Source of the DNA: Eggerthellaceae bacterium
Lineage (GTDB): Bacteria > Actinomycetota > Coriobacteriia > Coriobacteriales > Eggerthellaceae
DNA length: 12,353 nt
Assembly (NCBI GenBank): GCA_022792415.1
Contig: JAAWAY010000094.1
Span: 1 to 12,353 of the forward strand
Direction: 5' to 3'
Part shown: positions 1 to 11,935 of the stretch, in pieces
Layout of the letters: each line of letters starts with the position of its first letter
Numbering within the stretch: the stretch's first letter is position 1
The notes under the pieces: model-generated
Seen by the model: the letters and a program-made list of their open reading frames with translations, nothing else
Databases searched by the model: none
Told to the model about the DNA's origin: nothing
Translations under genes and position numbers: made by a program

Positions 1-1
1 C

Positions 2-1402
2 TCGCGCATGAGCCAGGGCGAGCGCTACGACCAGTGGGACTTTATCCGCAGCGGCGCCGCGCGCGTGGTGGTGGGCGCCCGCAGCGCGCTGTTTACCCCG
101 CTGGCCGACGTGGGCCTCGTCGTCATCGACGAGGAGCACGAGGGCTCCTACAAGCAGGACTCCGCCCCCCGCTACCAGGCGCGCGACGTGGCCGAGTGGA
201 TGATGCGCCGGTCGGGCGGCGCGCTCGTGCTGGGCTCGGCCACGCCGTCGGTCGAGGCGCTGCACGCCGCCGCCACCCGCGACGCGTGGACCCAGGTGCG
301 CCTGCCCGAGCGCGCCAACGGCCGGCCGCTGCCGCAGGTGGAGGTCGTCGACATGGCCGCCGAGTTCAAGGGCGGGTCGCGCGCCATGTTCTCGGGACGG
401 CTCACCCGCGCGCTGGGCGAGGAGCTCTCGCAGGGCCGCAAGGCGGTGCTGCTGCTCAACCAGCGCGGGTTCGCCAAGTTCCTGCTGTGCCGCGACTGCG
501 GCTTCGTGCCCGAGTGCCCGCACTGCGCCACGTCGCTGGCCTACCACGACTCCGACCGCACGCTGCGCTGCCACCACTGCGACTACCGCGTGGCCGCCCC
601 CCCGACGTGCCCTGAGTGCGGCAGCCCCTACCTCAAGAAGTTCGGCGCGGGCACCCAGCGGGTGGAGGCCGAGCTGCGCGCGCTCCTGGACGGGATGCCC
701 GGCGTGGGCCCGGGCGTGCCCGTCATCCGCATGGACGCCGACACCACGCGCGGCAAGGGCGCCCACCAGCGCCTGCTCGAGGAGTTCGCCGCCGCGGACG
801 CCGCCGTGCTGCTGGGCACGCAGATGATCGCCAAGGGCCTCGACTTCGACGACGTGACGCTCGTGGGCGTCATCAACGCCGACACGCAGCTGCACCTGCC
901 CGACTACCGCGCAGGCGAGCGCACGTTCGACCTGATCGAGCAGGTGGCCGGCCGCGCGGGCCGCGCCGAGCTGCCCGGGCGCGTGCTCGTGCAGACCTAC
1001 GAGGCCGACGCCGTGGCCATCCGCGCCGCGGCCGCCTACGACCGCGCGCTGTTCCTGCGCGCCGAGCTGCCCAAGCGCCGCGCGCTGGGCTACCCGCCCT
1101 ACGTGGCCCTGGCCAACGTGCTGGCTTGGGGCCCCGACGAGGGCGAGGTGGCGCGCGTGGCGACCGACCTGCAGCGCCAGCTGGAGGCGCTCGCGCGTGA
1201 CCACGGCGGCCCCGACTGGCAGGTGCTCCCGGCCACGCCCTGCGCGCTCGGCAAGCTGCGCAACGCCTACCGCTGGCACGTGGTGGTCAAGGCCCCGCCC
1301 GGCGCCGACATCCCCGGCGTCCTGACGCGCCTGTTCCGCGCGCGCAAGGCCGACGCCGCGGTGAACGTGGCCGTCGACGTCGACCCGGTCGACCTGCTGT
1401 AG
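2..1402 (+). CDS. priA: Primosomal protein N-prime (PriA replication-restart helicase), 3' portion. The gene runs off the left edge; the M at 8 is internal.
   Basis: In-frame continuation from the window edge. DEEH (DExH) helicase motif II (VVIDEEHEG). Canonical PriA Cys-rich zinc-binding region (CRDCGFVPECPHCATSLAYHDSDRTLRCHHCDY...CPECGS). Helicase C-terminal region and PriA C-terminal domain. High-GC codon usage. TAG stop at 1400-1402. Confidence 0.9.
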   Translation, partial: SRMSQGERYDQWDFIRSGAARVVVGARSALFTPLADVGLVVIDEEHEGSYKQDSAPRYQARDVAEWMMRRSGGALVLGSATPSVEALHAAATRDAWTQVRLPERANGRPLPQVEVVDMAAEFKGGSRAMFSGRLTRALGEELSQGRKAVLLLNQRGFAKFLLCRDCGFVPECPHCATSLAYHDSDRTLRCHHCDYRVAAPPTCPECGSPYLKKFGAGTQRVEAELRALLDGMPGVGPGVPVIRMDADTTRGKGAHQRLLEEFAAADAAVLLGTQMIAKGLDFDDVTLVGVINADTQLHLPDYRAGERTFDLIEQVAGRAGRAELPGRVLVQTYEADAVAIRAAAAYDRALFLRAELPKRRALGYPPYVALANVLAWGPDEGEVARVATDLQRQLEALARDHGGPDWQVLPATPCALGKLRNAYRWHVVVKAPPGADIPGVLTRLFRARKADAAVNVAVDVDPVDLL

Positions 1403-1454
1403 CCCGCCGCCGCCTGCGGGGCCCGCGCGCCGCGCGGAGCGCCCCGGCAACGCG

Positions 1455-1460
1455 TATAAT
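1455..1460 (+). promoter_or_regulatory. Perfect TATAAT -10 hexamer in the priA-downstream intergenic region. Possible promoter for the 1540 gene.
   Basis: gcgTATAATcag seen directly. No convincing -35 17 bp upstream (the region is GC-rich), so the support is weak. Confidence 0.25.
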
Positions 1461-1539
1461 CAGGGGAAACAAGCGCAAGCCGGCCAGAGGGGCCGCGCCC
1501 GGGCCGTCGGGCCCGGCAGGCCGAGGGGAAGGAGGGGCC

Positions 1540-2622
1540 GTGTCGACCAGCAGCCGCCGGTGGCGGTGGGCCTCCGCCCGCGCCCTCGTCTCGTCGCTCA
1601 CGCCGGCCGCCGCGGGCCTGGCGGCCCTCTCGGTGGCGCTCGTCGCGCTAACGGCCGGCGCCTACGGCCTGGCCGTCCCGGCCCTGGCCGGGCAGAGCGC
1701 CCTCGTGCTGGGCCCCGTCACCGCTGCGCCGTTTCCCCACGTGGACCGCGCCGACGGCCTGGCGGCCACGGGTGGCGCGCCGGGCCTGGGCGAGGTCGCC
1801 CCGCGCGACGGGGCCGAGGGCGGCGCCGACGGCGCTGACGGGGCCGACCCCGCCGCGGCCGGCGCCGAGCCCGCCGGGGGAGCCGACTCCGCGGGCGCGC
1901 TGCCGCCCACGCTCGGCACCATCCTGCTCCCCACCGTCAGCGCCGGCGCGTCCGACGCGCAGGCGGTCGCCACGGGCGGCGGCTCGGGAGGCGTGGCATC
2001 CGGCGCGGCCGGGTCGGCTGGCTCGTCTGGCTCGGCGGGGTCGTCGGGGTCCTCGGGCGGCGCCGGCACGGCCGGATCGACGGGCGGATCCTCGGGCGGC
2101 AGCTCGTCATCGGGCGGGTCGTCGTCGGGGCCCGCGGAGGAGCCGCGGGGTGAGGCGGCCATCCAGCAGGCCTACGAGACCGAGCACAACGACGAGGTGA
2201 AGGCCCTGCTCACGCGCTACTACCAGCAGGTGCCCACCTACATGAACCGCGCCATCGAGGCATACAACGCCTTCCCTGCGCAGGCCAAGACGGCCTCGCT
2301 CTCGCAGCGCCAGGCCTACGCCGCGCAGGTGGAGTCCCAGATGTCGCAGGCCATCGGCCCGTGGAACCAGATGACGCTCGACATGCAGGGCAAGCGCTGC
2401 TCCCAGTACTACCGGGACAAGTACGCCGAGATCGACAAGCTCTACAGCGACGTGTACAAGGTGTACGAGGGGCTGCAGGAGGCGTGGGGCGTCAACCTGG
2501 GCTACGCCGACCCCGCCGGCCACGAGGCCGACTACCTCGCGCCCCTCAACGCGCGCCTGAGCGGCGGACGCCCGGCGGCGGTGGTCGACTACGAGCGCCG
2601 CCTGGCAGGGGCGCGCCCGTGA
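1540..2622 (+). CDS. Secreted or membrane-anchored hypothetical protein. It has an N-terminal signal/anchor, an Ala/Gly/Asp and Gly/Ser low-complexity linker, and a C-terminal ~170-aa helical domain of unknown function.
   Basis: GTG start at 1540 preceded by GGGGAAGGAGGGG (SD). Basic N-terminus (RRWRW) then a hydrophobic stretch. GC3-rich codon usage. The TGA stop at 2620-2622 overlaps the ATG of the next gene (TGATG). Confidence 0.75.
   Translation: MSTSSRRWRWASARALVSSLTPAAAGLAALSVALVALTAGAYGLAVPALAGQSALVLGPVTAAPFPHVDRADGLAATGGAPGLGEVAPRDGAEGGADGADGADPAAAGAEPAGGADSAGALPPTLGTILLPTVSAGASDAQAVATGGGSGGVASGAAGSAGSSGSAGSSGSSGGAGTAGSTGGSSGGSSSSGGSSSGPAEEPRGEAAIQQAYETEHNDEVKALLTRYYQQVPTYMNRAIEAYNAFPAQAKTASLSQRQAYAAQVESQMSQAIGPWNQMTLDMQGKRCSQYYRDKYAEIDKLYSDVYKVYEGLQEAWGVNLGYADPAGHEADYLAPLNARLSGGRPAAVVDYERRLAGARP
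1972..2131 (+). repeat. Degenerate tandem nucleotide repeats (ggctcg / tcgggcgg units) encoding the Gly/Ser-rich linker of the 1540-2622 protein.
   Basis: Directly visible repeated ggctcgtctggctcggcggggtcgtcggggtcctcgggcgg... units. Encodes GSAGSSGSAGSSGSSGGAGTAGSTGGSSGGSSSSGGSSSG. Confidence 0.5.
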
Positions 2623-4373
2623 TGGCGGCGATCGGGGAGGGGGCCCTCGCCGCGCCGGGCGCGGGGAGCCTGCGCCTCGTGCGCGTGGAGGGCTTCGAGG
2701 CGCCCGAGGTGCTGGCCCCGGGCGACGAGGACGCCTACCGGCGCCGCTTCTGCTCGCTGCTCATGGACGACGCCCGCTCCCGGCGGGGCGGCCTGGGCCA
2801 GGTGACCTGGGCCGTCAACGCGCGCGGCGAGGCCCTGGCCGTCAAGCGGCTCCTGCCCGCGGAGGGCGCCGCGGCGGGGTCGCGCGGGTGCCAGGAGGCG
2901 CTCGAGCGCGCCTTCGCGGAGGAATACGAGGGGCACCGGCGCGTGTCGGGCCTCAAGGGCTTCCCGCGCCTGTACGGCCGCGGCACGGTGGACGGCGCGC
3001 CCGCGCTCATCATGGAGTGGGTGGAGGGCGAGACGCTCGAGCACGCGGCGCGGGCGCTGGCCGTGGACGGCGAGGGGCGCCTGTCGCCCCTGACGGCGGC
3101 GCGCCTATCCCGTGACCTGTTCGAGCTGCTGGCGCGCATGGACCTGGTGGAGGGCGGGTTCTCGCACCGGGACGTGACGCCGGCCAACGTCATGGTGTGC
3201 ACCACGCTTCAGCCCTTGGCGGCGCAGGTGGAGGAGGGCGTGTTCGACCTGCGGCTGGTCGACTTCGGCTCGGCGGCCGTGGGGGAGCGCCGGGCCACGT
3301 CGCTCACCGAGGCGTGGGGCGCGCCCCGCGGCGCGACGCCCGAGTACGCCCCGCCCGAGATGCTCACCGAGGACGTGGCCGAGGCCGTGGCGGCCCGCGC
3401 GGGCGCGGCCGTGGACGTGTACGCCGCCGCCGGCGTCGCGCAGCGGCTGCTGACAGGGCGCCCGCCCTTCGACCTGGCCTCCGACGTCCGCTCGCCCTAC
3501 CGCTGCAAGACCGAGGACGTGCCCGCGCCGCTGACCTGCGCGCACGAGGCCGCGACCGACCTGGGGGCGGTGCTGGCGGGCGAGCCCGAGGTGGCCGTGG
3601 CGCTCAGCCACGCCGTCGCCGACGCGGGCGGAGCGCCGGGGCCCGACCGCGCCCGGGAGGCGCTCTGCGCGGTGGACGCGCAGCTGGCGGGCCTGGTGGG
3701 CCCGTGCTTGGCTCCCAAGCCGAAGGACCGCCCCTCCGCCGCGGCGGTGCGCGACGGCCTGACCGCCTTCTGCCGGCAGTACGCCCCCAACCTGGGGCGC
3801 GCCCTGCGCGGCGAGGCGCTCGACCCGGCGGTGCTGGGCGAGGGCGCCACCCGCGTCGCGGACCGCTCGCGCCGTGCCGCCGCCGTGCTGCGGGGCGTCG
3901 CCCGCGCGGCGTGCGGGCTGGTGTGGGCGGCGGTGCTGGCCTCGGCTGCGCTGCTCGCCGACGGCGCGCGCGCCACGGTGGCCACGGGCGCGGGCCCCGA
4001 AGACGTCCTGGTGCCCGGCTGGGCGGTGGCGCTGCTGCTGGCCGCGCCGACGCTGGCGGCGTACGCCGCGCGGGGCCGCAACGGTGACCGTGGATGGGGC
4101 CTCGCCGCGGGGAGCGCCGCCCTGGTCGGGGCGTCGCTTCTGGTCATGGGCGCCGGCGCGGTGGTCGACCTGGCGTCGGGCGAGGTGGCGGCTGCCCTGG
4201 CAGCAGCCCTGGCCGCCTGCGCCGCCGCGGCGTGGTGTCCTATGGCGATCGGCTACGCGCTCTCGCCGCGCCGCCGACGCGCCCGCGCCGGGCGCAGGGC
4301 CGCGCGCGACGGCCTGCCGGCGGGGGAGGACGACGCGCAGGACGGCGCCGAGCCCCTGGGGCTGGCGTCGTAG
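2622..4373 (+). CDS. Hanks-type (PknB-like) Ser/Thr protein kinase-family protein with a C-terminal ~4-helix transmembrane domain. No PASTA or extracellular sensor domain. Atypical catalytic loop HRDVTPAN.
   Basis: ATG at 2622 overlaps the upstream stop (translational coupling); the ORF-track M at 2361 is an in-frame extension across the upstream gene. Kinase subdomains are recognisable: RRGGLGQVTWAV (Gly loop, compare PknB GFGGMSEVH), ALAVKRL (VAIK Lys), EEYE (alphaC Glu), IMEWVEGETL (hinge), HRDVTPANVMV (catalytic loop, with Thr in place of the conserved Lys), DFGSA (DFG), PEYAPPEM (APE), DVYAAAGV...LTGRPPF. The C-terminal third is strongly hydrophobic (multiple predicted TM helices). Confidence 0.8.
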   Translation: MAAIGEGALAAPGAGSLRLVRVEGFEAPEVLAPGDEDAYRRRFCSLLMDDARSRRGGLGQVTWAVNARGEALAVKRLLPAEGAAAGSRGCQEALERAFAEEYEGHRRVSGLKGFPRLYGRGTVDGAPALIMEWVEGETLEHAARALAVDGEGRLSPLTAARLSRDLFELLARMDLVEGGFSHRDVTPANVMVCTTLQPLAAQVEEGVFDLRLVDFGSAAVGERRATSLTEAWGAPRGATPEYAPPEMLTEDVAEAVAARAGAAVDVYAAAGVAQRLLTGRPPFDLASDVRSPYRCKTEDVPAPLTCAHEAATDLGAVLAGEPEVAVALSHAVADAGGAPGPDRAREALCAVDAQLAGLVGPCLAPKPKDRPSAAAVRDGLTAFCRQYAPNLGRALRGEALDPAVLGEGATRVADRSRRAAAVLRGVARAACGLVWAAVLASAALLADGARATVATGAGPEDVLVPGWAVALLLAAPTLAAYAARGRNGDRGWGLAAGSAALVGASLLVMGAGAVVDLASGEVAAALAAALAACAAAAWCPMAIGYALSPRRRRARAGRRAARDGLPAGEDDAQDGAEPLGLAS

Positions 4374-4467
4374 GGCGGGATGCGGACGATTATCGAATCA
4401 AAGCCTTGACCAGGCATTTGCGGCGATTAGCAAGCTATTCGCCGCATGATATGCGGTGAATAAGAAA

Positions 4468-4499
4468 GGGGGCGCGGCCCGAGATCGGGCCGCGCCCCC
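4468..4499 (-). terminator. Intrinsic terminator. A perfect 13-bp GC stem (GGGGGCGCGGCCC / GGGCCGCGCCCCC) with a 6-nt loop, followed on the minus strand by a U-rich tract (CUUUCUUAUU). Possibly bidirectional.
   Basis: Perfect inverted repeat seen directly. The T-run is only on the minus-strand 3' side (plus 4456-4467 = ...ataagaaa). It would end minus-strand transcripts coming from the island operon or gene remnant. It may also stop the plus-strand kinase operon. Confidence 0.6.
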
Positions 4500-4526
4500 T
4501 CTGCGCGTCGGGTACGCGGGCTCCCG

Positions 4527-4668
4527 CTAGGCGCGGGGGACGACCAGGCGCGTCCGGTTCCAGACGCCCTCGTCGTTCACGTAGTAGCGTCCGATCCACT
4601 TGTCGGTGGCCATGGCGCCCGAGTCCTCGAAGTATTACCAGTGGTCACCGGTGCGCAGTTGGGCGGAA
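4527..4668 (-). pseudogene. 3'-terminal remnant of a cell-wall-binding-repeat (CW_binding_1 / choline-binding-type) protein gene. It has an in-frame TAA at 4635-4637, and its 5' part is replaced by low-GC DNA.
   Basis: Minus-strand translation ...ISAQLRTGDHW*YFEDSGAMATDKWIGRYYVNDEGVWNRTRLVVPRA* ends at TAG (4527-4529). Two tandem units match the G-x-M-A-T-G/D-W...YY...G-x-W repeat logic of clostridial/streptococcal cell-wall-binding repeats. GC-rich, host-like. The ORF has no start and an internal stop. Confidence 0.5.
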
Positions 4669-4695
4669 ATCTGATTTCAAATCCAAACGCGTTCG

Positions 4696-5196
4696 CTAGA
4701 TGCGAAACAAGGATCGAATAGCAGAGCCTAGATGAAGGACGGAGCTTATTGTATAAAGGTCATCAGCAGTGAGAGTGTTATCGGAATCGCCATCATCTGG
4801 TTTTTCCTCATCCGGTTCGTTTTCGGGCACAATAGCAGGATTTTCGATCGTCTCTGTTGTCCCATCCATATATTGTATTTCCACTTTTTTCAATTGTGCC
4901 GATGCAATTGTTCCGTTATACCAAAGATGCTCAAAATGATACGACTCGTATGCACCGGGCTCAATCGGGCCTACGCCTTGGGCAAGTTTTATTGGGGAGT
5001 TGCTATTTCTTTCACCGACGATGTCACCCACAGAATTGATGGCCTGTAAGGTGAACTTAATATACTTTACTGTTTTGTCGGTATCGTTTTGAAGACGGAT
5101 TCGGACGCCAGCCCCACCAGCGCTATCCACACCGCTAATGAAGCAATCATTGTAATCTTTATATCCAACTCGCACCGACGAAATTATTATTCCCAT
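4696..5196 (-). CDS. Hypothetical small protein (166 aa), predicted beta-rich with an acidic C-terminal segment. Last gene of the low-GC operon.
   Basis: ATG at 5196..5194 with SD GGAGAGG 7 nt upstream. The ORF-track start at 5202 is a TTG two codons earlier. Low-GC codon usage matches the neighbouring island genes. No recognisable motif. Confidence 0.65.
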   Translation of the reverse strand: MGIIISSVRVGYKDYNDCFISGVDSAGGAGVRIRLQNDTDKTVKYIKFTLQAINSVGDIVGERNSNSPIKLAQGVGPIEPGAYESYHFEHLWYNGTIASAQLKKVEIQYMDGTTETIENPAIVPENEPDEEKPDDGDSDNTLTADDLYTISSVLHLGSAIRSLFRI

Positions 5197-5240
5197 TTTC
5201 AATCCTCTCCATCAAGGTTTCTTCAATGCTAGTATTTCGG

Positions 5241-6179
5241 TTATTCTCCACATGCCATCTTGTTTTTCACCTCTCTAATCATGTGCTTTTTGCTTGCTAT
5301 TTCCTCGTCAGTTAGCCGTGGTGTTTCAACGTATGCGCCCCATTTGTTGCGGACGAGATCCATTGAATTTCTTTCAAGCAACTCGCTAATCATGGTTATC
5401 ACCAACTGATAAACCTCAGATTTTGATTCCTGGTGCGTTTCGACGAGATCGGCAACTTTGATTAACACCTTGGTGCAGTTATCCGTTTCTTCTTCTAATT
5501 CCCAGAAGGCTGACCGAGTTTTGCTCATGTCGTAATCGCGCACTATTTCCGAGGCAACGTCTCTCATGGCTGAACAAACGATGGTTGTGGCTTTCCCAAA
5601 CACCTTTTGTTGACTAACGACAACGCCGGCCGAAGCCTCGTATTTCTTTATCGCCGAAGAGAAAGAATCGATGCCAGCGGAAAAGATGTCCGTGAAGTAT
5701 TCGTTTGTGAGCATTGAAACGTTTGCGCAACCCAAGGTCATCAGCCGGATTGCCAGTTCCTCGAGATATGATTCAATTGTTTTCGCCGCTGTTCTTTTTT
5801 CTGATTCGAAAGGTAAAGATTTGAGCGCCTGGATGAAACACGAAATAGACTCTTCAATACGAAGATTTTTCAGTGTCATCAGTTGGCCTATAGCCCGGCC
5901 TTTAAGTACATATACATCAAACCCCTGAGGTTCTTCCTCAATGGCTTTGTTGCAATGCGCTATCGCCAGGCTCCAATCGCTGGCATTGTAAGAGTCTTGA
6001 GCGAGCTCAAGGCGAAGATTTGCAGAATGAGCAAAACCGTCTTTTAGGCTACCCCCCCCCCTGGTGCTATTCTGCTCAAAAGACAGGTCATGCTCGACGC
6101 CGCAGCATTCGCAAACGGCGATGTTTCCCTCGCCCGTTTTTAGCCGACCTCCGCATATGTTGCATACGAGTGTTGCCAT
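5241..6179 (-). CDS. Zinc-ribbon plus TPR-like helical protein (312 aa), hypothetical.
   Basis: N-terminal CNICGG...CECCG (CxxC-x15-CxxC zinc ribbon). A TPR-like unit (SDWSLAIAHCNKAIEEEPQGFDVYVLKGRAIGQL). ATG at 6179..6177, 3 nt after the stop of the upstream gene (TGAGCCATG). Low GC. Confidence 0.7.
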   Translation of the reverse strand: MATLVCNICGGRLKTGEGNIAVCECCGVEHDLSFEQNSTRGGGSLKDGFAHSANLRLELAQDSYNASDWSLAIAHCNKAIEEEPQGFDVYVLKGRAIGQLMTLKNLRIEESISCFIQALKSLPFESEKRTAAKTIESYLEELAIRLMTLGCANVSMLTNEYFTDIFSAGIDSFSSAIKKYEASAGVVVSQQKVFGKATTIVCSAMRDVASEIVRDYDMSKTRSAFWELEEETDNCTKVLIKVADLVETHQESKSEVYQLVITMISELLERNSMDLVRNKWGAYVETPRLTDEEIASKKHMIREVKNKMACGE

Positions 6180-6182
6180 GGC

Positions 6183-6743
6183 TCACTCACCAGATTCCCG
6201 TTGGAGAGAGGCGCAGCACGTTTCGCGGCGGCATTTCTTGGCGTTGTCGTTGTCAATGGGGATAATGCTGTCAGCGTCGTAATAGTTGTCTCTTACGATG
6301 GCCCCAATCTGGTACACGAGGTCCACGAGATCAGCCGATTCCTCCGCTAGTTTTTGGAATTGAGAATCAACATCATCGTATTGATCCAAAGTTACCAATT
6401 GATGCACGAGCTTATTTCGTTCCTTGCACCACCTTTTCACAGAGCGAAGCGTATCGGGCTTCACGTCCTTGACCAGGGGATACTCTCTTTTGGATAAACG
6501 TATAAGGCACTCGATCTTGGTTGTGATGCCTGTCGGCCTCGCATTTTCTGCTCGCGGCGCTTTCGGGCAGCCCTGCGCTATTTTTGAAATAATGCGATCG
6601 AAGCGGTTTTCGAAGCATGCATAGGCATACCAGCACGTCTCAACGTAAGACCCTCGCTCTATTGCGTTGTTGATGCGCTGAAGAACGTCATCGTGCATTG
6701 CTGCCATTTCAAGTCGCTTTTCATAGGGTTCCAAGGGTTCCAT
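6183..6743 (-). CDS. Hypothetical all-alpha protein (186 aa) with a HEPN-like R-N-x3-H motif (KERNKLVHQ). Candidate HEPN-superfamily RNase or Abi-like effector.
   Basis: ATG 6743..6741 lies 3 nt after the stop of the upstream gene (TAGGCCATG). Rx4H (R109-N-K-L-V-H114, nt 6402-6419) sits in a predicted helical context about 110 aa into the protein, as in HEPN domains. No other family signature recognised. The functional call is inference. Confidence 0.65.
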   Translation of the reverse strand: MEPLEPYEKRLEMAAMHDDVLQRINNAIERGSYVETCWYAYACFENRFDRIISKIAQGCPKAPRAENARPTGITTKIECLIRLSKREYPLVKDVKPDTLRSVKRWCKERNKLVHQLVTLDQYDDVDSQFQKLAEESADLVDLVYQIGAIVRDNYYDADSIIPIDNDNAKKCRRETCCASLQRESGE

Positions 6744-6746
6744 GGC

Positions 6747-7421
6747 CTACTTCTTTCCTGCCTTGATCATGATGTTGCGTTTGTCGAGAAGGCGAGATAT
6801 TGACTGGAGGGTCTCCAGATCAACCCTTCCGCTTTCCTTAACCTGTTCGACATAGGCGTTGATTTGACTCTCTATCTCCGACGTCGACTCGAGGCTCCTC
6901 GAATTGCTGAACCGGGCCGTGTCTATCAACTCGTTCAAGGCTTTCTGCTCTTCGCCTCTTACTTCGAAATCAGCCTCGATGCCGCGTAGGCTCATAAGGA
7001 GGTCGCGGGAGAAGGCCGTGGACCTTTCAGCTGCATTCTCGACTTGGCTGGCGTAGCTCATGCCCTTTTCTGCGCCGATTAACGCGATTGAACTCATGGC
7101 CAGGAGAATGACGCCAGTAACAATCGATATGGTTGTATCTCCGGGTAGCAAGAGGGCGAGCGCTCCACCCACAGCGAGCTGGATAAGCAGGAAGAGCGTG
7201 GGTAGAACAAGTTTCGGGTACGTTTGGAACAGCCCTGAGACGTCGGCTTGCGTTCTGCTGATGCCTGCGAAATAAAGAAGAACTCCTTGCGCCAGGCCAA
7301 ACAAGAGCGCGATCCACGAGGTAGCGGTCTGCGGCGCAAGCAACGAGATAAGGAGCGCATACGCTGCGTAGATGATTGCAAGGATGCCGAGGCAGGCTAC
7401 CCTCATTGTTGGTTTCTTCAT
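6747..7421 (-). CDS. Integral membrane protein (224 aa). About 4 N-terminal TM helices, then a cytoplasmic coiled-coil/helical domain. Possibly a YdjH-like partner of the SPFH protein.
   Basis: ATG 7421..7419 preceded by AAGGAGGGG (SD). Starts 3 nt after the stop of the SPFH gene (TAGGCTATG). Long hydrophobic segments (ILAIIYAAYALLISLLA, WIALLFGLAQGVLLYFAG, LVLPTLFLLIQLAVGGALALLL, IVTGVILLAMSSIALIGA) followed by a charged heptad-like C-terminus. Confidence 0.75.
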   Translation of the reverse strand: MKKPTMRVACLGILAIIYAAYALLISLLAPQTATSWIALLFGLAQGVLLYFAGISRTQADVSGLFQTYPKLVLPTLFLLIQLAVGGALALLLPGDTTISIVTGVILLAMSSIALIGAEKGMSYASQVENAAERSTAFSRDLLMSLRGIEADFEVRGEEQKALNELIDTARFSNSRSLESTSEIESQINAYVEQVKESGRVDLETLQSISRLLDKRNIMIKAGKK

Positions 7422-7424
7422 AGC

Positions 7425-8561
7425 CTATCCCCTCCTTGTGCCACACTCGGGGCAGAATTTCTCCGTTGAGCCGAAGGGCCTGCCGCACTCCGGGCAGAAT
7501 TTTGCGTTTTGCTGACCTGTATCTGCTGGTTGCCCGTTGCCGTCGACAACGGAGACGGAAGGTGGGTCGACCAAGGGGTCGGCTGTCCCGATTGAGCTCG
7601 CCATCGCACCGCTTACCAGGTTCCCCACTGGGCCGCCGACGCCACTCACCATTCCGAGCCCGATTCCCATGTTTGCGAACTCGCCAACGCCCTCATTGGC
7701 AGCCACCTTTTCGGCAACATCGAAACCGCGCTCCTGCTGATAGGTGTAGCCCTCGATGCGACGCTTGTCGGCGGTGGCGCCAGCCTCGATCACCGTGCGC
7801 TTGGCCTCTGTCTCCTGATTTATGATGCCGACTTGCTGCTCGATCTGCGCCTCGCGTACATCGGCGTACTGGCGGAAATACAGCTCGCGGAACTTCTCGT
7901 AGATAGGATCTCCCTCGGGTCTCATGACCGTCGTCACGAGAAACTGCGTGAGCTCAAGGCCGTATTCCTCGAAGTCGGATGCTAGCCGACCTTTAACGTC
8001 GTCGGAAAACTCCTCCAAGTGCGCGTCAAGCTCGAAAATATTAAGCGCTTTATTCTGTACAGCCTGTACAAGAGCGGTTTTTACACGTGTCTGCAAGAAA
8101 GCCTTGAAATAGCTAATGAGATTGTCTTGTGACAGCACCGCCTCTGTTCCGACAATCTTTACAAGTAGTTTTTTAGCTTCGCGTACGGCGAGCGCCATTT
8201 CGCCCGAGGCGCCAATCGACAGGGGAAACCCGAACTCGGGCTCCATGTACTGTACTTTCGAGTTGGTCCCCCAGGGGATGCCCATCTGCTCGGTAAGGTT
8301 TACAAAGTAAACCTCGGCATGAAAGGGGGATATGCCGTTTGACGGCAGGCTTACAACCTTGTTGATGAGTGGGAGGTTCTGGGTCTCCAGCGTATGGCGC
8401 CCAGGGCCAAATAGATCGAGTGCTTGACCGTTGAGGAAAAACATTGCCTCCTGCGACTCGTGGACAATGAGTTGCGAGGCGGTATTGAAATCCTCCGCGG
8501 GATGTTTCCAGATGAAGGTGCGGTTGTCGCCCTCATACTTAATGACGTCGATAATTCCCAT
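7425..8561 (-). CDS. SPFH/Band-7 (flotillin-like) protein of the YdjI / Band_7_1 type with a C-terminal double CxxC zinc ribbon (378 aa).
   Basis: Recalled similarity to B. subtilis YdjI: ...AEVYFVNLTEQMGIPWGTNSKV versus AEVLFVNTKEFTVRWGTKQ; a Gly/Met-rich low-complexity segment; C-terminal FCPECG...FCPECG versus YdjI NFCPNCG...NFCPNCG. Start taken at ATG 8561..8559 (MGIIDVIKYEG...) with SD GGAGGGG 9 nt upstream. The ORF-track extension to 8762 has no SD, is Cys-rich junk, and covers the predicted promoter. Confidence 0.85.
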   Translation of the reverse strand: MGIIDVIKYEGDNRTFIWKHPAEDFNTASQLIVHESQEAMFFLNGQALDLFGPGRHTLETQNLPLINKVVSLPSNGISPFHAEVYFVNLTEQMGIPWGTNSKVQYMEPEFGFPLSIGASGEMALAVREAKKLLVKIVGTEAVLSQDNLISYFKAFLQTRVKTALVQAVQNKALNIFELDAHLEEFSDDVKGRLASDFEEYGLELTQFLVTTVMRPEGDPIYEKFRELYFRQYADVREAQIEQQVGIINQETEAKRTVIEAGATADKRRIEGYTYQQERGFDVAEKVAANEGVGEFANMGIGLGMVSGVGGPVGNLVSGAMASSIGTADPLVDPPSVSVVDGNGQPADTGQQNAKFCPECGRPFGSTEKFCPECGTRRG

Positions 8562-8658
8562 TCCAGCATGCCCCTCCATACAAGACAGACAGTCCAGAGC
8601 CAAGAAGCGACCTCCTGTCCTCGAGAAGGGAAAGAGGCTGCAATCCGTTCCACTGGCT

Positions 8659-8687
8659 TTGAATGATATGTGGGGTGAGAGGTAACT
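8659..8687 (+). promoter_or_regulatory. Candidate plus-strand promoter for the FHA-A gene. TTGAAT-17-GTAACT immediately abuts the palindromic operator.
   Basis: Hexamers seen directly. The -10 is weak. Position relative to the palindrome (8687-8700) is consistent with repressor control. Confidence 0.3.
8663..8668 (-). promoter_or_regulatory. Candidate -10 (TATCAT) of the minus-strand island operon promoter. The palindrome lies in its -35 region.
   Basis: Minus strand reads TTGTTGCGCAACAAGTTACCTCTCACCCCACATATCATTC. TATCAT matches TATAAT at 5 of 6. This gives a roughly 95-nt leader to ATG 8561. Confidence 0.3.
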
Positions 8688-8700
8688 TGTTGCGCAACAA
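8687..8700. promoter_or_regulatory. Perfect 14-bp palindrome TTGTTGCGCAACAA in the divergent intergenic region (operator-like). The core TGTTGCGCAACA recurs at 9881-9892.
   Basis: Exact dyad symmetry seen directly. An identical 12-bp core recurs 1.2 kb away. It sits between the divergent candidate promoters. Confidence 0.55.
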
Positions 8701-8869
8701 AGTCGAGCGATCAGGGGTGTTTGAGCGGAGGGTCGGCTTCGCCTCGCGCAAACGGCAACCAATCTCGTCTATGCTATGCTCATCAGCGAAAACAACGGGG
8801 CAGCAGCTTGCTCTCGCATCGACACACCCGGCGCGGGCGCCGCGCTCAGGGCAAGAAGGAGGCCGCCGG

Positions 8870-9838
8870 ATGGCAGCGACCGATACCACCCCGGGCATGG
8901 TGCTCTTCTCAACCCTCAAGCGCGACGCGTCCCTCAGCTACAAGGACACGGCCTCGCTCGTGCTGTCGGGCCGGCCCCTGCCGGACGGTCGCAGCCCGCT
9001 CAGCCGCATCGATGACCGCACGTGGCTGTCGCGCTACGTGGTGAACGCGCCGGCCGGCACCGCCCAGCCCCACTTCTTCAACGATTTCTCGCTGTCGGCC
9101 CTGCGCATCACGGCGCGCCTGAAGTCGAAGCGCGGCCGTGGGATGTCGGGTGAGGACGTGCTGGCGCTCGTGACGGGCGACGCGGGCCGCGCCATGGAGG
9201 ACGCGCTGGCCGCGTGCCACCAGGACGTCGGACCCTACCGTAACCAGATGGCGCGCGTGATGGGCGACGCGGGGCTCACGGCCGACGAGCGGGCCGAGGC
9301 TGCCATGGTGCTGTTCGTGGCGGCCGGCTGCACGGCCGACGTGCGCCGCGCGGTGGAGGCGACGTCCGACTTCATGCGCAGCGCGCACGGCGGCGGCCTG
9401 TCGACGCCGGCGTTCGCGCTCATGCCGCGCGAGGGGACGCCCCGGCGCGGCGAGGCGCCCGCTCCGTCACTGGGCCTGCTGCGCGTGGTGGACGGCTATG
9501 TGTGCGGGGCGCCCCACTGGGTGGCGCCCGATGGCGAGGGCGCGGAGATTGGCGCGCTCTCCTTCGCCGACGGGGCGGTGACCGACGTGGGCGAGGACGT
9601 GTCGGGGCGCCACGCGCGCCTGTGGAACGAGGACGGTGCGTGGCTGGTGGAGGGCCTGGGGTCCACCAACGGCACGGTGCTCGTGTCCGCCGCGGACGGG
9701 TCACGGGTGGTGGTAGAGCCGCCGGCGCGCGAGCGGGCCGGCTTCGAGCCGGCGCCCGTGGAGGTGCGCCCGGGCGACCAGCTGCTGCTGGGCGGCACCA
9801 CCGCGTTCCTGGTGCTGGAAGGATCACCTGACGCATAG
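8870..9838 (+). CDS. FHA-domain protein, paralog A (322 aa). An N-terminal ~220-aa domain of unknown function plus a C-terminal forkhead-associated (phosphothreonine-binding) domain. High GC.
   Basis: ATG 8870 with SD AAGAAGGAGG 7 nt upstream; the ORF-track M at 8663 is an upstream in-frame extension. FHA signature VSGRHARLWNEDGAWLVEGLGSTNGTVLV (S-x-x-H, NG-T, then hydrophobic beta strands, ...PGDQLLLGGTTAFLV). About 45% identical, and the same length, as the 10618-11586 product. Confidence 0.85.
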   Translation: MAATDTTPGMVLFSTLKRDASLSYKDTASLVLSGRPLPDGRSPLSRIDDRTWLSRYVVNAPAGTAQPHFFNDFSLSALRITARLKSKRGRGMSGEDVLALVTGDAGRAMEDALAACHQDVGPYRNQMARVMGDAGLTADERAEAAMVLFVAAGCTADVRRAVEATSDFMRSAHGGGLSTPAFALMPREGTPRRGEAPAPSLGLLRVVDGYVCGAPHWVAPDGEGAEIGALSFADGAVTDVGEDVSGRHARLWNEDGAWLVEGLGSTNGTVLVSAADGSRVVVEPPARERAGFEPAPVEVRPGDQLLLGGTTAFLVLEGSPDA

Positions 9839-9880
9839 CCCGTCTTGCGGGGCCTTCTCCATACGTTCATCACCAAATAC

Positions 9881-9892
9881 TGTTGCGCAACA
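9881..9892. promoter_or_regulatory. Second copy of the palindrome TGTTGCGCAACA, 43 nt after the FHA-A stop and 64 nt before the 9956 ATG.
   Basis: Exact 12-bp perfect palindrome identical to the core at 8688-8699. Flanking sequence is not conserved, so it is a discrete site rather than a long duplication. Confidence 0.55.
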
Positions 9893-9910
9893 CCGCCTGC
9901 GCAGGCGGTG
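9891..9910. other. Perfect 20-bp palindrome CACCGCCTGCGCAGGCGGTG (hairpin-capable), overlapping the operator core by 2 nt and followed by AAAAA.
   Basis: Seen directly. Could be a U-tract-less terminator for FHA-A, a second operator, or an RNA structural element. Confidence 0.4.
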
Positions 9911-9955
9911 AAAAACTGGGCTTCCTATCCATGACCGGAAGGAAGCGTCCCAACC

Positions 9956-10621
9956 ATGGTCCAGTGCAACGGCAACCTCATCGTCTTCGCCTGCGAAGAT
10001 GCTCTGATGCACGCCATTCTTCTGGAAATGGGCTCCAACCTTGCGAAAGCCGAGCGTCGACGGTCAAGACACTATGTCAGTCCCGTTTCGGCTATCAGGA
10101 TCGAGGGAACGGAGTCGACGCAGGAGCTGCTGGGCAAGATAGTGCCGCTTTACCTGAAGGACCCTGTCGCTGCCCTTAATCCAAACTCACGCACGAGTGC
10201 CGCCGATGGAGAGCCGGCTCCTCCTGATCTGAAGGTCATAGACGGGTACACGGTGCTATCCCTTGCTTTCGCCACTGACGGAGGCGTGGTTGATTCCGAT
10301 GTGACACAGTTCGTTCGAGCCCTGCCCTCCGAGCAGTGCGGCATTGCAGCTTGCCACTGGTTTGATGGACTTGAGAGACGTCTGCTTATTCAGGGCAACC
10401 TGCGTGACGCCGGCCCGTTTCGCTGCGGCGGTCCAGCAGGTGGAATCGATTCGCTTGAGTTGTTCTTCGGACAGGATATGTTCGCGACCCCCGAGCAGTG
10501 GGAGCGTTTCCTGCACAGTAATAGTTCCGCAGGGGGAGATGTCACCTCGCCGCACGATGACGGGCCGCAGGGCGTGGCTAATCGAAGACTGGCAGCTATG
10601 ATCGGGGATGCTGGACTGTGA
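9956..10621 (+). CDS. Hypothetical cytoplasmic protein (221 aa), translationally coupled to FHA paralog B. Medium GC.
   Basis: ATG 9956 with a GGAAGGAAG purine-rich stretch upstream. The TGA stop (10619-10621) overlaps the GTG start of the next gene (GTGA). No recognisable motif. The C-terminal ...RRLAAMIGDAGL resembles a segment (RNQMARVMGDAGL) of FHA-A. Confidence 0.65.
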   Translation: MVQCNGNLIVFACEDALMHAILLEMGSNLAKAERRRSRHYVSPVSAIRIEGTESTQELLGKIVPLYLKDPVAALNPNSRTSAADGEPAPPDLKVIDGYTVLSLAFATDGGVVDSDVTQFVRALPSEQCGIAACHWFDGLERRLLIQGNLRDAGPFRCGGPAGGIDSLELFFGQDMFATPEQWERFLHSNSSAGGDVTSPHDDGPQGVANRRLAAMIGDAGL

Positions 10622-11586
10622 CACTGCCCGAGGTCTCGCCTCGCGTGGTGCTGTTTGACACGATAAAGCGACTCGGAGGCGTCAGCTATAAGGAAACGGC
10701 GCGAATGCTTCTGTCTTCGCGACCGCTGATGGGAGGGCGCAGTCCCGCAGAGCGCCTTGAGAGCAGTCGCACGTGGCTGACGCGCGAGGTGGTGCATGCC
10801 GAAAACTTTGCAGGGCAGCCCGGTTTGTTCTGCGATTTTGAGGTGGGGGCGATGCGAGTGCTGGCGCGGCTCAAATCGACCAGGGCCGGGGGCCATGGTG
10901 GCGCTGCTTTAGTTCGCGAGCTCTGCGAGGGGCAGGCTGCGGCTGACATGCTGCAGGCCCTAGAGGCAACGGGACGAGGGGGACGCCTGTACCGAAACAT
11001 GCTCACGCGTCTCGTCCGCGCGAACGGCTTGGAGAACGACGAGCGTGCCGAGGTTGCCATGGTGCTGTTTGTGGCGGCGGGCTGCACAGGTGATGCGCGG
11101 ACGGCAGTTGCTGACGCCTTGAGGTTCTCGCACTCCGTTCATGGTGGCCGTATGGAAATGGGAGACGCTGAAGTCGCGGAAGACTCGAACGGGGTTTGTC
11201 TGGTTTCTCACGATGACAGCCCGCCCCTTCTTGGTCTTCTTCGCATGGTCGGTGACTACATTGCAGGCGGTCCCTACTGGGTGTCCCCGGAGCGCGACGG
11301 CGCCACGATCGGCATGCTCGCGCTCGGGTCGGAGGATATCGTCGACGTTGAGCCTGATGTGGCGAATCATCATGCCCGTGTGTGGTTTGACGGGTCATCG
11401 TGGTTCGTCGAGGACCTCAGGTCGGGTTCGGATGTGGCAGTGTTTCGTGATGACAATACATGCCATGAAGTAGCTTTTGGTGGAATCGCTCACTTAAGCC
11501 GTGGGGATGAGATCGTGCTCGGCCGAGGTACGCGATTCCACGTTGTATTCGGTCTTCCTGGTGTTGATCGGCCAGCTCCGCTTTAA
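10618..11586 (+). CDS. FHA-domain protein, paralog B (322 aa). Same architecture as 8870-9838 but in about 56% GC DNA.
   Basis: GTG start overlapping the upstream stop. Collinear gap-free N-terminal alignment with paralog A (VVLFDTIKR...SYKETARMLLSSRPLMGGRSP versus MVLFSTLKR...SYKDTASLVLSGRPLPDGRSP). Shared DERAEVAMVLFVAAGCTGD block. C-terminal FHA-like segment (NHHARVWFDGSSWFVEDLRSGSDVAVF). Confidence 0.85.
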   Translation: MTLPEVSPRVVLFDTIKRLGGVSYKETARMLLSSRPLMGGRSPAERLESSRTWLTREVVHAENFAGQPGLFCDFEVGAMRVLARLKSTRAGGHGGAALVRELCEGQAAADMLQALEATGRGGRLYRNMLTRLVRANGLENDERAEVAMVLFVAAGCTGDARTAVADALRFSHSVHGGRMEMGDAEVAEDSNGVCLVSHDDSPPLLGLLRMVGDYIAGGPYWVSPERDGATIGMLALGSEDIVDVEPDVANHHARVWFDGSSWFVEDLRSGSDVAVFRDDNTCHEVAFGGIAHLSRGDEIVLGRGTRFHVVFGLPGVDRPAPL

Positions 11587-11792: not shown

Positions 11793-11826
11793 GTGACCGC
11801 AGGCCTCAGCTAGCGCCTGCGGTCAC
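11793..11826. other. 12-bp-stem hairpin (GTGACCGCAGGC-N10-GCCTGCGGTCAC) overlapping the stop codon of the small minus-strand ORF. U-rich on its plus-strand 5' side; UUU follows the stem on the plus strand.
   Basis: Perfect 12-bp inverted repeat seen directly. Not a canonical terminator in either orientation. Possibly a shared 3' stabiliser or terminator of convergent transcripts. Confidence 0.45.
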
Positions 11827-11935
11827 GCTGCGTTTCGGGGCGCTCACCCCGTGCTATGGACACGGCCTTGACCACCGCCGTCGCCAATCCCACCACCGCA
11901 GTGGCAAGCGCAACAACTTGAACAGCCAATTCCAT
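11810..11935 (-). CDS. Unannotated 41-aa small hydrophobic peptide MELAVQVVALATAVVGLATAVVKAVSIARGERPETQRDRRR. One TM helix plus a charged tail. Type I toxin-like or small membrane protein.
   Basis: ATG 11935..11933 preceded by a perfect SD AGGAGG (plus 11946-11951) at 10-nt spacing. Clean ORF to TAG (11812..11810). Missed by the ORF track, whose cutoff is 60 aa. Candidate promoter upstream (see 12017-12045). Confidence 0.45.
   Translation of the reverse strand: MELAVQVVALATAVVGLATAVVKAVSIARGERPETQRDRRR

What the first reader, a model, noticed from the sequence alone, without database searches (positions are those of the whole stretch)
8870..11586. Two same-length (322 aa) FHA-domain paralogs with different GC content in tandem loci: xenologous duplication of a phospho-signalling module
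FHA-A (about 70% GC, host-like) and FHA-B (about 56% GC) align collinearly without gaps at about 45% identity. Each follows a copy of the palindrome. FHA-B has acquired an upstream translationally coupled partner gene (9956-10621). The conserved N-terminal ~220-aa domain is uncharacterised. The C-terminal FHA domain implies phosphothreonine-dependent interaction, and a membrane Hanks kinase gene lies only 4.5 kb upstream. Before the island insertion the kinase and FHA-A would have been near neighbours. The second copy looks horizontally acquired from a different lineage rather than locally duplicated.
Basis: partly seen in the sequence, partly recalled or inferred. Interest (0 to 1): 0.65.

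Follow-up and report, generated by a model that had tools for sequence, protein, structure and literature searches.

The report
Resident and imported FHA-domain paralogs
A gut actinobacterium carries its normal kinase-associated FHA signalling protein next to a second, compositionally foreign copy that comes with its own partner gene and has lost most of the residues FHA domains use to read phosphothreonine; both belong to an uncharacterised protein family.

Summary
The two 322-aa FHA genes are real, but they are 39% identical with several indels, not 45% without gaps. GC is 74% against 61% (GC3 93% against 64%).

FHA-A is the resident gene. In about 65 of 74 Coriobacteriia genomes its ortholog lies directly after a membrane Hanks kinase. 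Here a foreign segment of about 4.2 kb separates the two.

FHA-B belongs to a separate, kinase-unlinked clade (bootstrap 500/500) and never groups with FHA-A (0/500).

The partner gene was not newly acquired. A sister strain (FHA-A 98% identical) has the same FHA-A–partner–FHA-B layout and the same GTGA overlap. There the partner is 47% and FHA-B 53% identical to the window's, and both have host-like GC3 (0.86–0.90). The window therefore carries a foreign allele of an existing two-gene cassette.

The N-terminal domain of about 175 aa is confidently modelled, all-helical, and has no relative among solved structures.

The palindrome is a Coriobacteriia-wide cis-element. The function of the module is not known.

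The parts
1540..2622 (+). First gene of the conserved three-gene operon. It encodes a single-pass membrane protein with an N-terminal transmembrane segment, a Gly/Ser-rich linker and a C-terminal globular part.
   Evidence: Hydropathy shows a transmembrane segment at residues 15-51. Weak but repeated tblastn matches lie just upstream of the kinase in many loci. There is no Pfam or NCBIfam hit. Its stop overlaps the kinase ATG.
2622..4373 (+). Membrane-anchored Hanks-type Ser/Thr kinase, the ancestral upstream neighbour of FHA-A.
   Evidence: Pfam Pkinase E 1.8e-14. HRD, DFG and APE motifs and 3-4 C-terminal transmembrane segments are present. Orthologs lie directly upstream of the FHA gene in about 65 of 74 loci. 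GC3 is 0.966.
4660..8860 (-). Foreign insertion (about 4.2 kb, boundaries approximate) that splits the kinase-FHA-A pair. It holds five minus-strand genes: 4696-5202, 5241-6179, 6183-6743, 6747-7421 and SPFH/Band7 with zinc ribbons at 7425-8561.
   Evidence: GC is 44-56% against about 77% in the flanks. The segment is absent between kinase and FHA in L001-L005 and the other loci. SPFH has a Pfam Band_7_1 hit at E 9e-39. SPFH homologs of 63-72% identity occur in ordinary-GC relatives L033, L040 and L042.
8687..8700 (.). Palindrome copy 1, TTGTTGCGCAACAA (14-nt perfect dyad). It lies in the divergent SPFH / FHA-A intergenic region.
   Evidence: It is 127 nt from the SPFH start (8561) and 170 nt from the FHA-A start. 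The same motif lies 68-86 nt upstream of SPFH homologs in L033 and L042.
8870..9838 (+). FHA-A, the resident A-type protein. It has a novel all-helical N-domain (residues 8-173), a disordered linker (about 175-198; pLDDT below 50 at 181-194) and a C-terminal FHA domain (200-318).
9881..9917 (.). Promoter-region elements of the partner-FHA-B operon: palindrome copy 2 TGTTGCGCAACA (9881-9892), a second 20-nt dyad (9891-9910) and the conserved GGTGAAAAACT (9907-9917).
   Evidence: The palindrome and GGTGAAA(A/G)ACT are conserved upstream of the partner homologs in L079, L087 and L088. The bases between them differ between alleles. B-type FHA genes in L084 and L085 have GTTGCGCAAC-N8-GAAAAACT.
9956..10621 (+). 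Partner gene (221 aa, acidic, soluble, orphan family), translationally coupled to FHA-B.
   Evidence: No Pfam, NCBIfam, PADLOC or PHROGs hit. Only 6 representatives exist among 1.84 billion proteins. The P0137 homolog in L087 has the same GTGA overlap with a B-type FHA gene. GC3 is 0.622.
10618..11586 (+). FHA-B, a B-type (kinase-unlinked) paralog with the same two-domain architecture but a degenerate FHA motif set.
   Evidence: Pfam FHA 22.6 bits. It is 39% identical to FHA-A and 52.6% to the L087 copy. The clade with L087 B' and P0122-P0125 has 500/500 support. Motifs are G-M, ANHH and SD, that is 2 of the 6 canonical residues. GC3 is 0.638.

Best explanation
**FHA-A: shown.** FHA-A is the vertically inherited member of a Coriobacteriia-wide three-gene operon. 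The operon encodes a single-pass membrane protein, a membrane-anchored Hanks Ser/Thr kinase, and a cytoplasmic protein with a novel helical N-domain, a flexible linker and a C-terminal FHA domain. In this strain a foreign segment of about 4.2 kb has been inserted between the kinase and FHA-A.

**FHA-B and the partner: shown.** They form a separate two-gene operon with a 4-nt start/stop overlap. FHA-B belongs to a distinct, kinase-unlinked 'B-type' clade of the same family. A sister strain with a nearly identical FHA-A has the same FHA-A-partner-FHA-B layout. Its partner and FHA-B are only about 50% identical to the window's and have host-like base composition.

**Evolution: inferred.** A partner/B-type cassette was already resident downstream of FHA-A in this high-GC lineage. 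The window's copy is a recently imported allele from an ordinary-GC (about 60%) Coriobacteriia donor. The sharp drop in similarity starts at the end of FHA-A.

**Mechanism: inferred.**
- FHA-A acts as the adaptor or substrate of the adjacent kinase. It is built like mycobacterial FhaA (globular N-domain, linker, FHA), and the N-domain is the output end.
- Because the whole family lacks the phosphate-binding Arg, any phospho-recognition must be non-canonical.
- FHA-B keeps only 2 of 6 phosphothreonine-motif residues and has no kinase of its own. It most likely works phospho-independently as a stoichiometric complex with its partner.
- Through the shared N-domain, FHA-B may engage the same target as FHA-A.
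For: **Synteny.** The kinase lies directly upstream of the FHA gene in about 65 of 74 genome loci, and priA lies 3-5 kb upstream in several. The closest relative (72% identity) shows 340 aa - kinase - FHA with a 161-nt spacer.

**Composition.** GC3 is 0.95-0.985 for priA and the operon's first gene, 0.966 for the kinase and 0.926 for FHA-A. It is 0.42-0.65 for the island genes and 0.62-0.64 for partner and FHA-B.

**Phylogeny.** A+P0001 group in 500/500 bootstraps, B with L087-B' and P0122-P0125 in 500/500, and A+B in 0/500.

**Sister strain L087.**
- FHA-A is 98.4% identical in protein and 95.5% in DNA.
- The partner is 47% and FHA-B 53% identical, with the same GTGA overlap.
- GC3 there is 0.94, 0.90 and 0.86 for the three genes.
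- Similarity collapses after the FHA-A stop, except for promoter motifs.

**Assembly.** An independent assembly, L086, reproduces both junctions.

**Motifs.** The residue after the conserved Gly is never Arg in 74 sequences. It aligns with the R of GR in 1uht and 1mzk. FHA-B is the only one of the 74 that lacks S245 and G268. Motif definitions come from PMC3162421.
Against: - No functional data exist for any family member.
- The right-hand boundary of the cassette is unknown, because both contigs end.
- Replacement of an existing cassette cannot be told apart from independent insertion of related cassettes at a hot spot.
- The sister-strain comparison rests on two short contigs (2.7 and 1.2 kb).
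- The B+B' sister relationship has only 59% bootstrap support.
- The trees are neighbour-joining trees from corrected p-distances, not maximum likelihood.
- Loss of the GR Arg does not prove loss of phosphothreonine binding. A basic residue at S+2 (R or H) and R250 are conserved and could compensate.
- A partner-FHA-B complex is inferred only from the conserved translational coupling.
Confidence: 0.55

Rival explanations
1. FHA-B is a xenologous duplicate acquired once by horizontal transfer. It then picked up a new partner gene and works as a phosphothreonine reader wired to the kinase at 2622-4373.
For: GC3 is foreign. FHA-B falls in a separate clade. An FHA profile hit is present. The kinase is nearby.
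Against: The partner-FHA-B pair, with the same overlap, is present at the same site in a sister strain with host-like GC. FHA-B has only 2 of 6 phosphothreonine-motif residues. Its closest relatives are not next to kinases.
Confidence: 0.15
2. The partner plus B-type FHA pair is an exchangeable accessory cassette of the defence-island type, for example an anti-phage or anti-mobile-element module. The pseudo-FHA protein would mimic the host's kinase adaptor or tap into it.
For: - All four distant partner homologs sit in accessory or defence-type neighbourhoods. One lies inside a BREX locus between PglX and PglZ/BrxL. One lies beside MZB, RelB/ParE and AAA_14-DUF4143. One lies beside DUF4357, and one beside AAA_14-DUF4143.
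- The closer homolog P0136 neighbours a HIRAN-Sel1 operon.
- Allelic divergence of about 50% next to a 98%-conserved neighbour is the pattern expected of a fast-turnover cassette.
- The adjacent island carries SPFH and a HEPN-like gene.
Against: There is no PADLOC or PHROGs hit for the partner, FHA-A or FHA-B. Nothing was found in viral contigs. The association rests on only 4-5 loci, and the distant homologs are never paired with FHA genes.
Confidence: 0.12
3. The family are kinase-controlled transcription factors. The N-domain would bind the palindrome TTTGTTGCGCAACAAA, so each FHA transcription unit would be autoregulated, in the manner of EmbR/PknH.
For: - The exact 10-mer occurs upstream of the operon in 22 of 63 loci, against a background of 0.017 per kb.
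- It lies directly upstream of the FHA gene where that gene comes first (L075, L076). It also lies upstream of B-type genes (L084, L085) and of the partner operons.
- The N-domain is mildly basic, with a median pI of 8.7.
Against: - The palindrome also precedes SPFH, lipoprotein and small membrane-protein genes.
- It is absent upstream of the operon in this window and in the closest relatives. About half of the loci lack it.
Confidence: 0.1
4. FHA-B is a decaying relic under relaxed selection, and the cassette is non-functional cargo.
For: FHA-B alone among 74 family members has lost S245 and G268, and it also has substitutions at N267 and T269. Its FHA domain is somewhat more diverged relative to its N-domain than in other members (ratio 0.90 against 1.07-1.13).
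Against: The 322-codon ORF is intact. Fold-core residues (G228, H248, W258, D303) are kept. The Pfam FHA hit is still above the cut-off. The start/stop overlap with the partner is conserved between alleles.
Confidence: 0.06
5. The contig is an assembly chimera of a high-GC and an ordinary-GC Coriobacteriia genome, joined through similar FHA genes.
For: GC changes sharply three times within 12 kb. The contig comes from a metagenome-assembled genome.
Against: An independent Logan assembly is 100% identical across both junctions around FHA-A. Contigs from two other samples show the same FHA-A-partner-FHA-B order. Gene order on the high-GC parts follows the conserved synteny.
Confidence: 0.02

Closest known systems
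Mycobacterial FhaA (Rv0020c), the FHA adaptor of the PknA/PknB pathway
   Different: The N-domain is not DUF3662 (no Pfam hit) and is all-helical, with no relative among solved structures. The Arg of GR is absent. The operon is membrane protein - kinase - FHA, not the fhaA-fhaB-pstP-rodA-pbpA-pknA-pknB cluster (that cluster is recalled from established knowledge).
EmbR / PknH (an FHA-containing transcription regulator controlled by a Hanks kinase)
   Different: No winged-helix or BTAD domain is detected by Pfam or by fold search. DNA binding is unsupported.
Non-canonical FHA folds that lack the phosphothreonine motifs (MxiG-N and YscD of type III secretion; Cpn0172 FHA-2)
   Same: The FHA fold is kept while the GR/SXXH/NG set is incomplete. 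MxiG-N was shown not to bind phosphothreonine (PMC3162421). FHA-B has 2 of 6 motif residues and FHA-A has 5 of 6.
   Different: These proteins are not secretion-system components. FHA-A keeps SXXH and NG, so partial phospho-recognition remains possible.
GarA/OdhI-type small FHA regulators
   Different: The protein is twice the size, with a structured 175-aa N-domain instead of a short disordered phospho-tail. T7-P8 sits at the start of helix 1 and may simply cap it.

Membership tests
FHA domain (Pfam PF00498) | Profile match above the curated cut-off | tested here: met
   FHA-A scores 27.8 bits and FHA-B 22.6 bits, against a cut-off of 20.7.
FHA domain (Pfam PF00498) | FHA beta-sandwich fold | tested here: met
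Canonical phosphothreonine-binding FHA | [quoted passage not shown] | tested here: not met
   The Gly is kept, but the next residue is Ala in FHA-A and Met in FHA-B. It is never Arg in 74 family members. It aligns with the R of GR in 1uht and 1mzk.
Canonical phosphothreonine-binding FHA | SXXH motif before strand 5 | tested here: inconclusive
   FHA-A has SGRH, so the feature is met. FHA-B has ANHH: the Ser is lost, uniquely among the 74 sequences, and the His is kept.
Canonical phosphothreonine-binding FHA | NG motif before strand 7 | tested here: inconclusive
   FHA-A has NG, so the feature is met. FHA-B has SD, so it is not met. The other B-type members have AG or TG.
Canonical phosphothreonine-binding FHA | Binding of phosphothreonine peptides | not testable with these tools
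   This needs ITC, fluorescence polarisation or NMR with phosphopeptides from the kinase.
FhaA (Rv0020c) family | N-terminal DUF3662 domain | tested here: not met
   No Pfam or NCBIfam match in residues 1-200. The N-domain has no fold relative in the PDB.
EmbR-like FHA transcription regulators | Winged-helix DNA-binding domain plus BTAD domain | tested here: not met
Hanks-type Ser/Thr kinase (the neighbour at 2622-4373) | Pkinase profile match and catalytic HRD, DFG and APE motifs | tested here: met
   Pfam Pkinase E 1.8e-14. HRDVTPANV, VDFGSA and TPEYAPPE can be read in the translation.
Known anti-phage defence systems (PADLOC-DB 2.0) | Profile match of FHA-A, FHA-B or the partner to a defence-system component | tested here: not met
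   No hits for these three proteins. Only the kinase gives generic kinase-domain matches (PD-T4-6, mad6).

The most novel reading that the evidence does not exclude
The partner plus B-type 'pseudo-FHA' pair is a new kind of exchangeable accessory cassette in Coriobacteriia, parked beside the core kinase-FHA signalling operon. Its N-domain would be a molecular copy of the resident adaptor's output domain. The cassette could then intercept or rewire the kinase pathway without needing phosphorylation, for example as a defence or counter-defence device. The cassette, the kinase operon and envelope genes would share one palindromic operator.
Probability: 0.12. Interest if true: 0.7.

Novelty: new variant of a known kind. 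Interest (0 to 1): 0.42.

Why it matters
Coriobacteriia such as Eggerthella, Adlercreutzia, Slackia and Collinsella are important gut bacteria that metabolise drugs and diet components, yet their Ser/Thr-kinase signalling is essentially unstudied.

- **A tractable module.** This locus points to a class-wide three-gene module: membrane protein, membrane kinase, and an FHA protein with a novel N-domain. The FHA domain systematically lacks the phosphate-binding arginine. That gives a concrete case for asking how non-canonical FHA domains work.
- **An evolving paralog.** The second, kinase-unlinked paralog has an orphan partner. Its alleles differ by about 50% next to a 98%-conserved neighbour. 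This shows that part of the family evolves as an exchangeable cassette.
- **A candidate regulon marker.** The palindrome offers a handle on a candidate envelope-related regulon.

None of this is demonstrated functionally. The value lies in well-defined, testable hypotheses rather than in a surprising mechanism.

Tried and rejected
- **Partner truncated at the FHA-B junction.** This was suggested by the longer C-terminus of P0136. It was rejected because P0137 ends at the same ...MI(E/G)DA(D/G)L position.
- **Assembly chimera.** Rejected by the independent contig L086 and by L087/L088.
- **Insertion boundaries.** I looked for direct repeats flanking the 4.4-8.9 kb insertion and for spacer homology to L001 and L005. 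There were no repeats of 9 nt or more and no alignable spacer.
- **RNA genes.** No tRNA, tmRNA or Rfam family was found anywhere in the window.
- **Partner relatives in other collections.** Scans of JGI metagenome contigs and viral contigs found no partner relatives. For B-type FHA genes the viral scan found nothing, and the metagenome scan returned a single locus (L091, 40% identical) whose FHA gene lies directly after a kinase.
- **Defence and phage libraries.** PADLOC and PHROGs gave nothing for the FHA proteins or the partner.
- **Look-ups that returned nothing new.** The exact-sequence look-up of the kinase found nothing, and that of the 322-aa FHA-A found only L086.
- **Unavailable or failed steps.** The AlphaFold-database fold search (afdb50) was not available. 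The first genome scan failed because the 74-sequence alignment was too diverse, and it was repeated with 12 sequences. A Biopython bootstrap run timed out and was replaced by a numpy neighbour-joining implementation.
- **Literature.** Searches for the palindrome and for FHA proteins in Coriobacteriia found nothing relevant.


Full report
**What is in the window.** The window is a complete 12,353-bp contig of an NCBI 'MAG: Eggerthellaceae bacterium'. Its composition is a mosaic.
- Positions 1-4400 are about 77% GC. They hold the 3' part of priA, a membrane-protein gene (1540-2622) and a Ser/Thr kinase gene (2622-4373).
- Positions about 4660-8860 are 44-56% GC and carry five minus-strand genes.
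- FHA-A (8870-9838) is 74% GC.
- Everything from 9840 onward is about 58-61% GC.

**Checking the observation.** Both ORFs are 322 codons long, and both pass Pfam's FHA gathering threshold (27.8 and 22.6 bits against 20.7). They are homologous over their full length, but at 39% identity with 32 gap positions. In the ungapped register identity is only 14%. GC is 73.9% against 61.2%, and GC3 is 0.926 against 0.638.

The partner ORF (9956-10621) ends in a TGA that overlaps the FHA-B GTG start as GTGA. TGTTGCGCAACA occurs at 8688-8699 and 9881-9892 and nowhere else in the window.

NCBI annotates shorter products, 177 and 293 aa. The 322-aa starts are supported in two ways. Residues T7, P8, F13 and K17 are conserved across the family. 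An independent gene call also gives 322 aa.

**Structure.** With a 74-sequence alignment, AlphaFold2 gives a confident model of FHA-A (pLDDT 91.2).
- It has an all-helical N-domain (nine helices, residues 8-173), a disordered linker (about 175-198; pLDDT below 50 at 181-194) and a beta-sandwich (200-318).
- It has no Pfam or NCBIfam match.

**The phosphothreonine motifs.** Canonical FHA domains carry GR, SXXH and NG motifs that form the phosphate pocket. MxiG-N lacks the full set and does not bind phosphothreonine (PMC3162421).
- In the 74-member family the residue after the conserved Gly is Ala 53, Ser 10, Met 5, Thr 5 and Pro 1, and never Arg.
- HMMER alignments to 1uht and KAPP (1mzk) place this residue opposite the R of GR.
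- FHA-A keeps SGRH and NG, so it has 5 of the 6 residues.
- FHA-B reads G-M, ANHH and SD, so it has 2 of 6. It is the only one of the 74 sequences that lacks the Ser and the Gly.
- All B-type relatives also lack the Asn.

The FHA assignment is therefore right at the level of fold. The inference of phosphothreonine-dependent binding is weak for FHA-A and unlikely for FHA-B.

**Family distribution and synteny.** Homologs of about 320 aa are common in Eggerthellaceae, Coriobacteriaceae and Atopobiaceae. In 78 loci, tblastn finds the kinase directly upstream of the FHA gene in about 65 of 74 genome loci, and priA 3-5 kb upstream in several. In the closest relative (72% identity) the order is MatE - 340 aa - kinase - 161-nt spacer - FHA.

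So the window's high-GC parts are the syntenic core, and positions 4660-8860 are an insertion into the kinase-FHA spacer. Two genomes (L047, L050) carry tandem kinase-FHA-kinase-FHA duplications.

The kinase has HRD, DFG and APE motifs and 3-4 C-terminal transmembrane segments.

**Origin of FHA-B.**
- FHA-B is about equally distant (about 40%) from all A-type proteins. It has few relatives in the protein database (19 hits, best 45%).
- Neighbour-joining trees with 500 bootstraps place FHA-A with its syntenic ortholog (500/500). They place FHA-B with P0122-P0125 (500/500) and never place A with B (0/500).
- P0124 and P0125 are stand-alone genes on contigs of 60-63% GC, with no kinase upstream.

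**The sister strain.** The decisive context came from the partner gene. A full HMMER scan of 1.84 billion representatives finds only six members of the partner family. One of them, P0137, lies on contig L087 from another sample. L087 encodes three genes in order.
- An FHA-A ortholog, 98.4% identical in protein and 95.5% in DNA.
- The partner homolog, 47% identical.
- A B-type FHA gene, 52.6% identical to FHA-B, which overlaps the partner by the same 4 nt.

There the three genes have GC3 of 0.94, 0.90 and 0.86. Nucleotide similarity to the window collapses right after the FHA-A stop, except for conserved promoter motifs. With this sequence added, the B-type clade keeps 500/500 support, and B+B' pair in 294/500.

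I infer that a partner/B-type cassette already sat downstream of FHA-A in this high-GC lineage. The window carries a recently imported allele with ordinary GC. The alternative, independent insertion at a hot spot, cannot be excluded.

**Not an assembly artefact.** A Logan contig from SRR11195283 is 100% identical to window 7166-10730. It spans both junctions around FHA-A.

**The palindrome.** GTTGCGCAAC occurs 46 times in 1.39 Mb of fetched loci, where about one occurrence is expected by chance. The consensus is ATTTGTTGCGCAACAAAT.
- In 22 of 63 loci an exact copy lies in the 1-kb window upstream of the first gene of the kinase operon. The background is 0.017 per kb.
- It also precedes SPFH homologs (L033, L042), lipoprotein genes and small membrane-protein genes of about 90 aa.
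- It precedes B-type FHA genes (L084, L085) and all partner homologs linked to this cassette.
- In the window both copies lie in the low-GC segments. The first is 127 nt from the SPFH start. The high-GC operon promoter has none.

The palindrome is thus a Coriobacteriia-wide operator-like element, and not a signature of the FHA paralogs. Whether the FHA proteins themselves bind it is open. The N-domain is mildly basic (median pI 8.7) but shows no DNA-binding fold.

**The partner.** It is soluble and acidic, with no known domain. Its distant homologs are never next to FHA genes, and they sit in accessory neighbourhoods.
- One lies between PglX and PglZ/BrxL of a BREX locus.
- One lies beside MZB, RelB/ParE and AAA_14-DUF4143.
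- One lies beside DUF4357.
- One lies beside AAA_14-DUF4143.

PADLOC and PHROGs give nothing for the partner or for either FHA protein. This is a lead towards a defence-island role, and no more than that.

**Verdict.** It is wrong, or at least unsupported, on the newly acquired partner, on phosphothreonine dependence and on the meaning of the palindrome.

What is there is the following. A resident member of an uncharacterised, class-wide family of kinase-associated FHA proteins with a novel N-domain lies next to a foreign allele of a kinase-unlinked paralog operon whose FHA domain is degenerate. This is a new variant of a known kind, namely FHA adaptors of Hanks kinases. It is of moderate interest, and its function is still unknown.

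Noticed in passing
window 8687-8700 and 9881-9892; loci L006-L076 (e.g. L006:7119, L033:2515, L042:10257, L075:9833): ATTTGTTGCGCAACAAAT is a strongly over-represented palindrome in Coriobacteriia, with 46 exact 10-mers in 1.39 Mb. It lies upstream of the membrane protein-kinase-FHA operon in 22 of 63 genomes. It also precedes SPFH genes, lipoprotein genes and small membrane-protein genes of about 90 aa. This looks like the operator of an unidentified regulator of an envelope-related regulon. No literature on it was found.
   Followed up: partly
window 1-4400 and 8870-9838; L087: The core genes have extreme GC3 (0.93-0.985), although the closest relatives found (72% identical FHA, 66% identical kinase) sit on contigs of about 55% GC. 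Contigs from two other samples (L087, L088; about 70% GC) confirm that a very GC-rich Eggerthellaceae lineage exists.
   Followed up: partly
window 4660-8860 (minus strand): The inserted island encodes five proteins. They are an SPFH/Band7 protein with C-terminal zinc ribbons (7425-8561), a 4-TM protein with a coiled-coil tail (6747-7421), and a 186-aa protein with an RNKLVH (Rx4H, HEPN-like) motif and a weak CARF_HEPN hit (6183-6743). The other two are a zinc-ribbon/TPR-like protein (5241-6179) and a 168-aa protein (4696-5202). GC3 rises from 0.42 to 0.65 across the island. SPFH plus the 4-TM gene recur near the kinase-FHA locus in L033 and L040.
   Followed up: partly
window 11810-11935 (minus strand), with 12045-12017 and 11797-11826: A 41-aa hydrophobic peptide ORF (MELAVQVVALATAVVGLATAVVKAVSIARGERPETQRDRRR) has a strong Shine-Dalgarno sequence. 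It has a promoter-like site (TTTAAA-17-TATAAT) upstream and an inverted repeat downstream. It resembles a type I toxin or small membrane peptide gene, as often seen on mobile DNA.
   Followed up: no
window 9891-9917; L079:~9930-9960; L087:~1000-1030; L084:~610-650: Downstream of the palindrome, the partner and B-type promoters share GGTGAAA(A/G)ACT at a spacing of 8 or 18 nt, which is one helical turn apart. The intervening bases form a different dyad in each allele; in the window this is the 20-nt perfect palindrome CACCGCCTGCGCAGGCGGTG.
   Followed up: no
L047 (2379-7583) and L050 (8299-13503): Two uncultured Coriobacteriia genomes carry a tandem duplication of the whole kinase-FHA pair (kinase-FHA-kinase-FHA). 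This is a different route to FHA paralogs from the one in the window.
   Followed up: no
L089:5945-6601; L090:3208-3894; L092:1963-2637; L093:832-2787: Distant homologs of the partner protein sit in defence-type neighbourhoods. One is inside a BREX locus between a split PglX and PglZ/BrxL. One is beside MZB and RelB/ParE. One is beside DUF4357, and two (L090, L093) are beside AAA_14-DUF4143. One is fused to a C-terminal extension of about 430 aa.
   Followed up: partly
window 8870-9838 and 10618-11586: The public annotation calls both FHA genes with late internal starts (177 aa and 293 aa). This cuts off most or part of the conserved N-domain. Family conservation and the conserved GTGA overlap support the 322-aa products.
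   Followed up: yes
window 4463-4500 and about 4520-4606 (minus strand): A GC-rich hairpin (GGGGGCGCGGCCC-GAGAT-CGGGCCGCGCCCCC) follows the kinase stop. Just beyond it, a 28-codon high-GC ORF fragment (MATDKWIGRYYVNDEGVWNRTRLVVPRA) looks like a leftover cell-wall-binding repeat. This was read from the sequence only.
   Followed up: no
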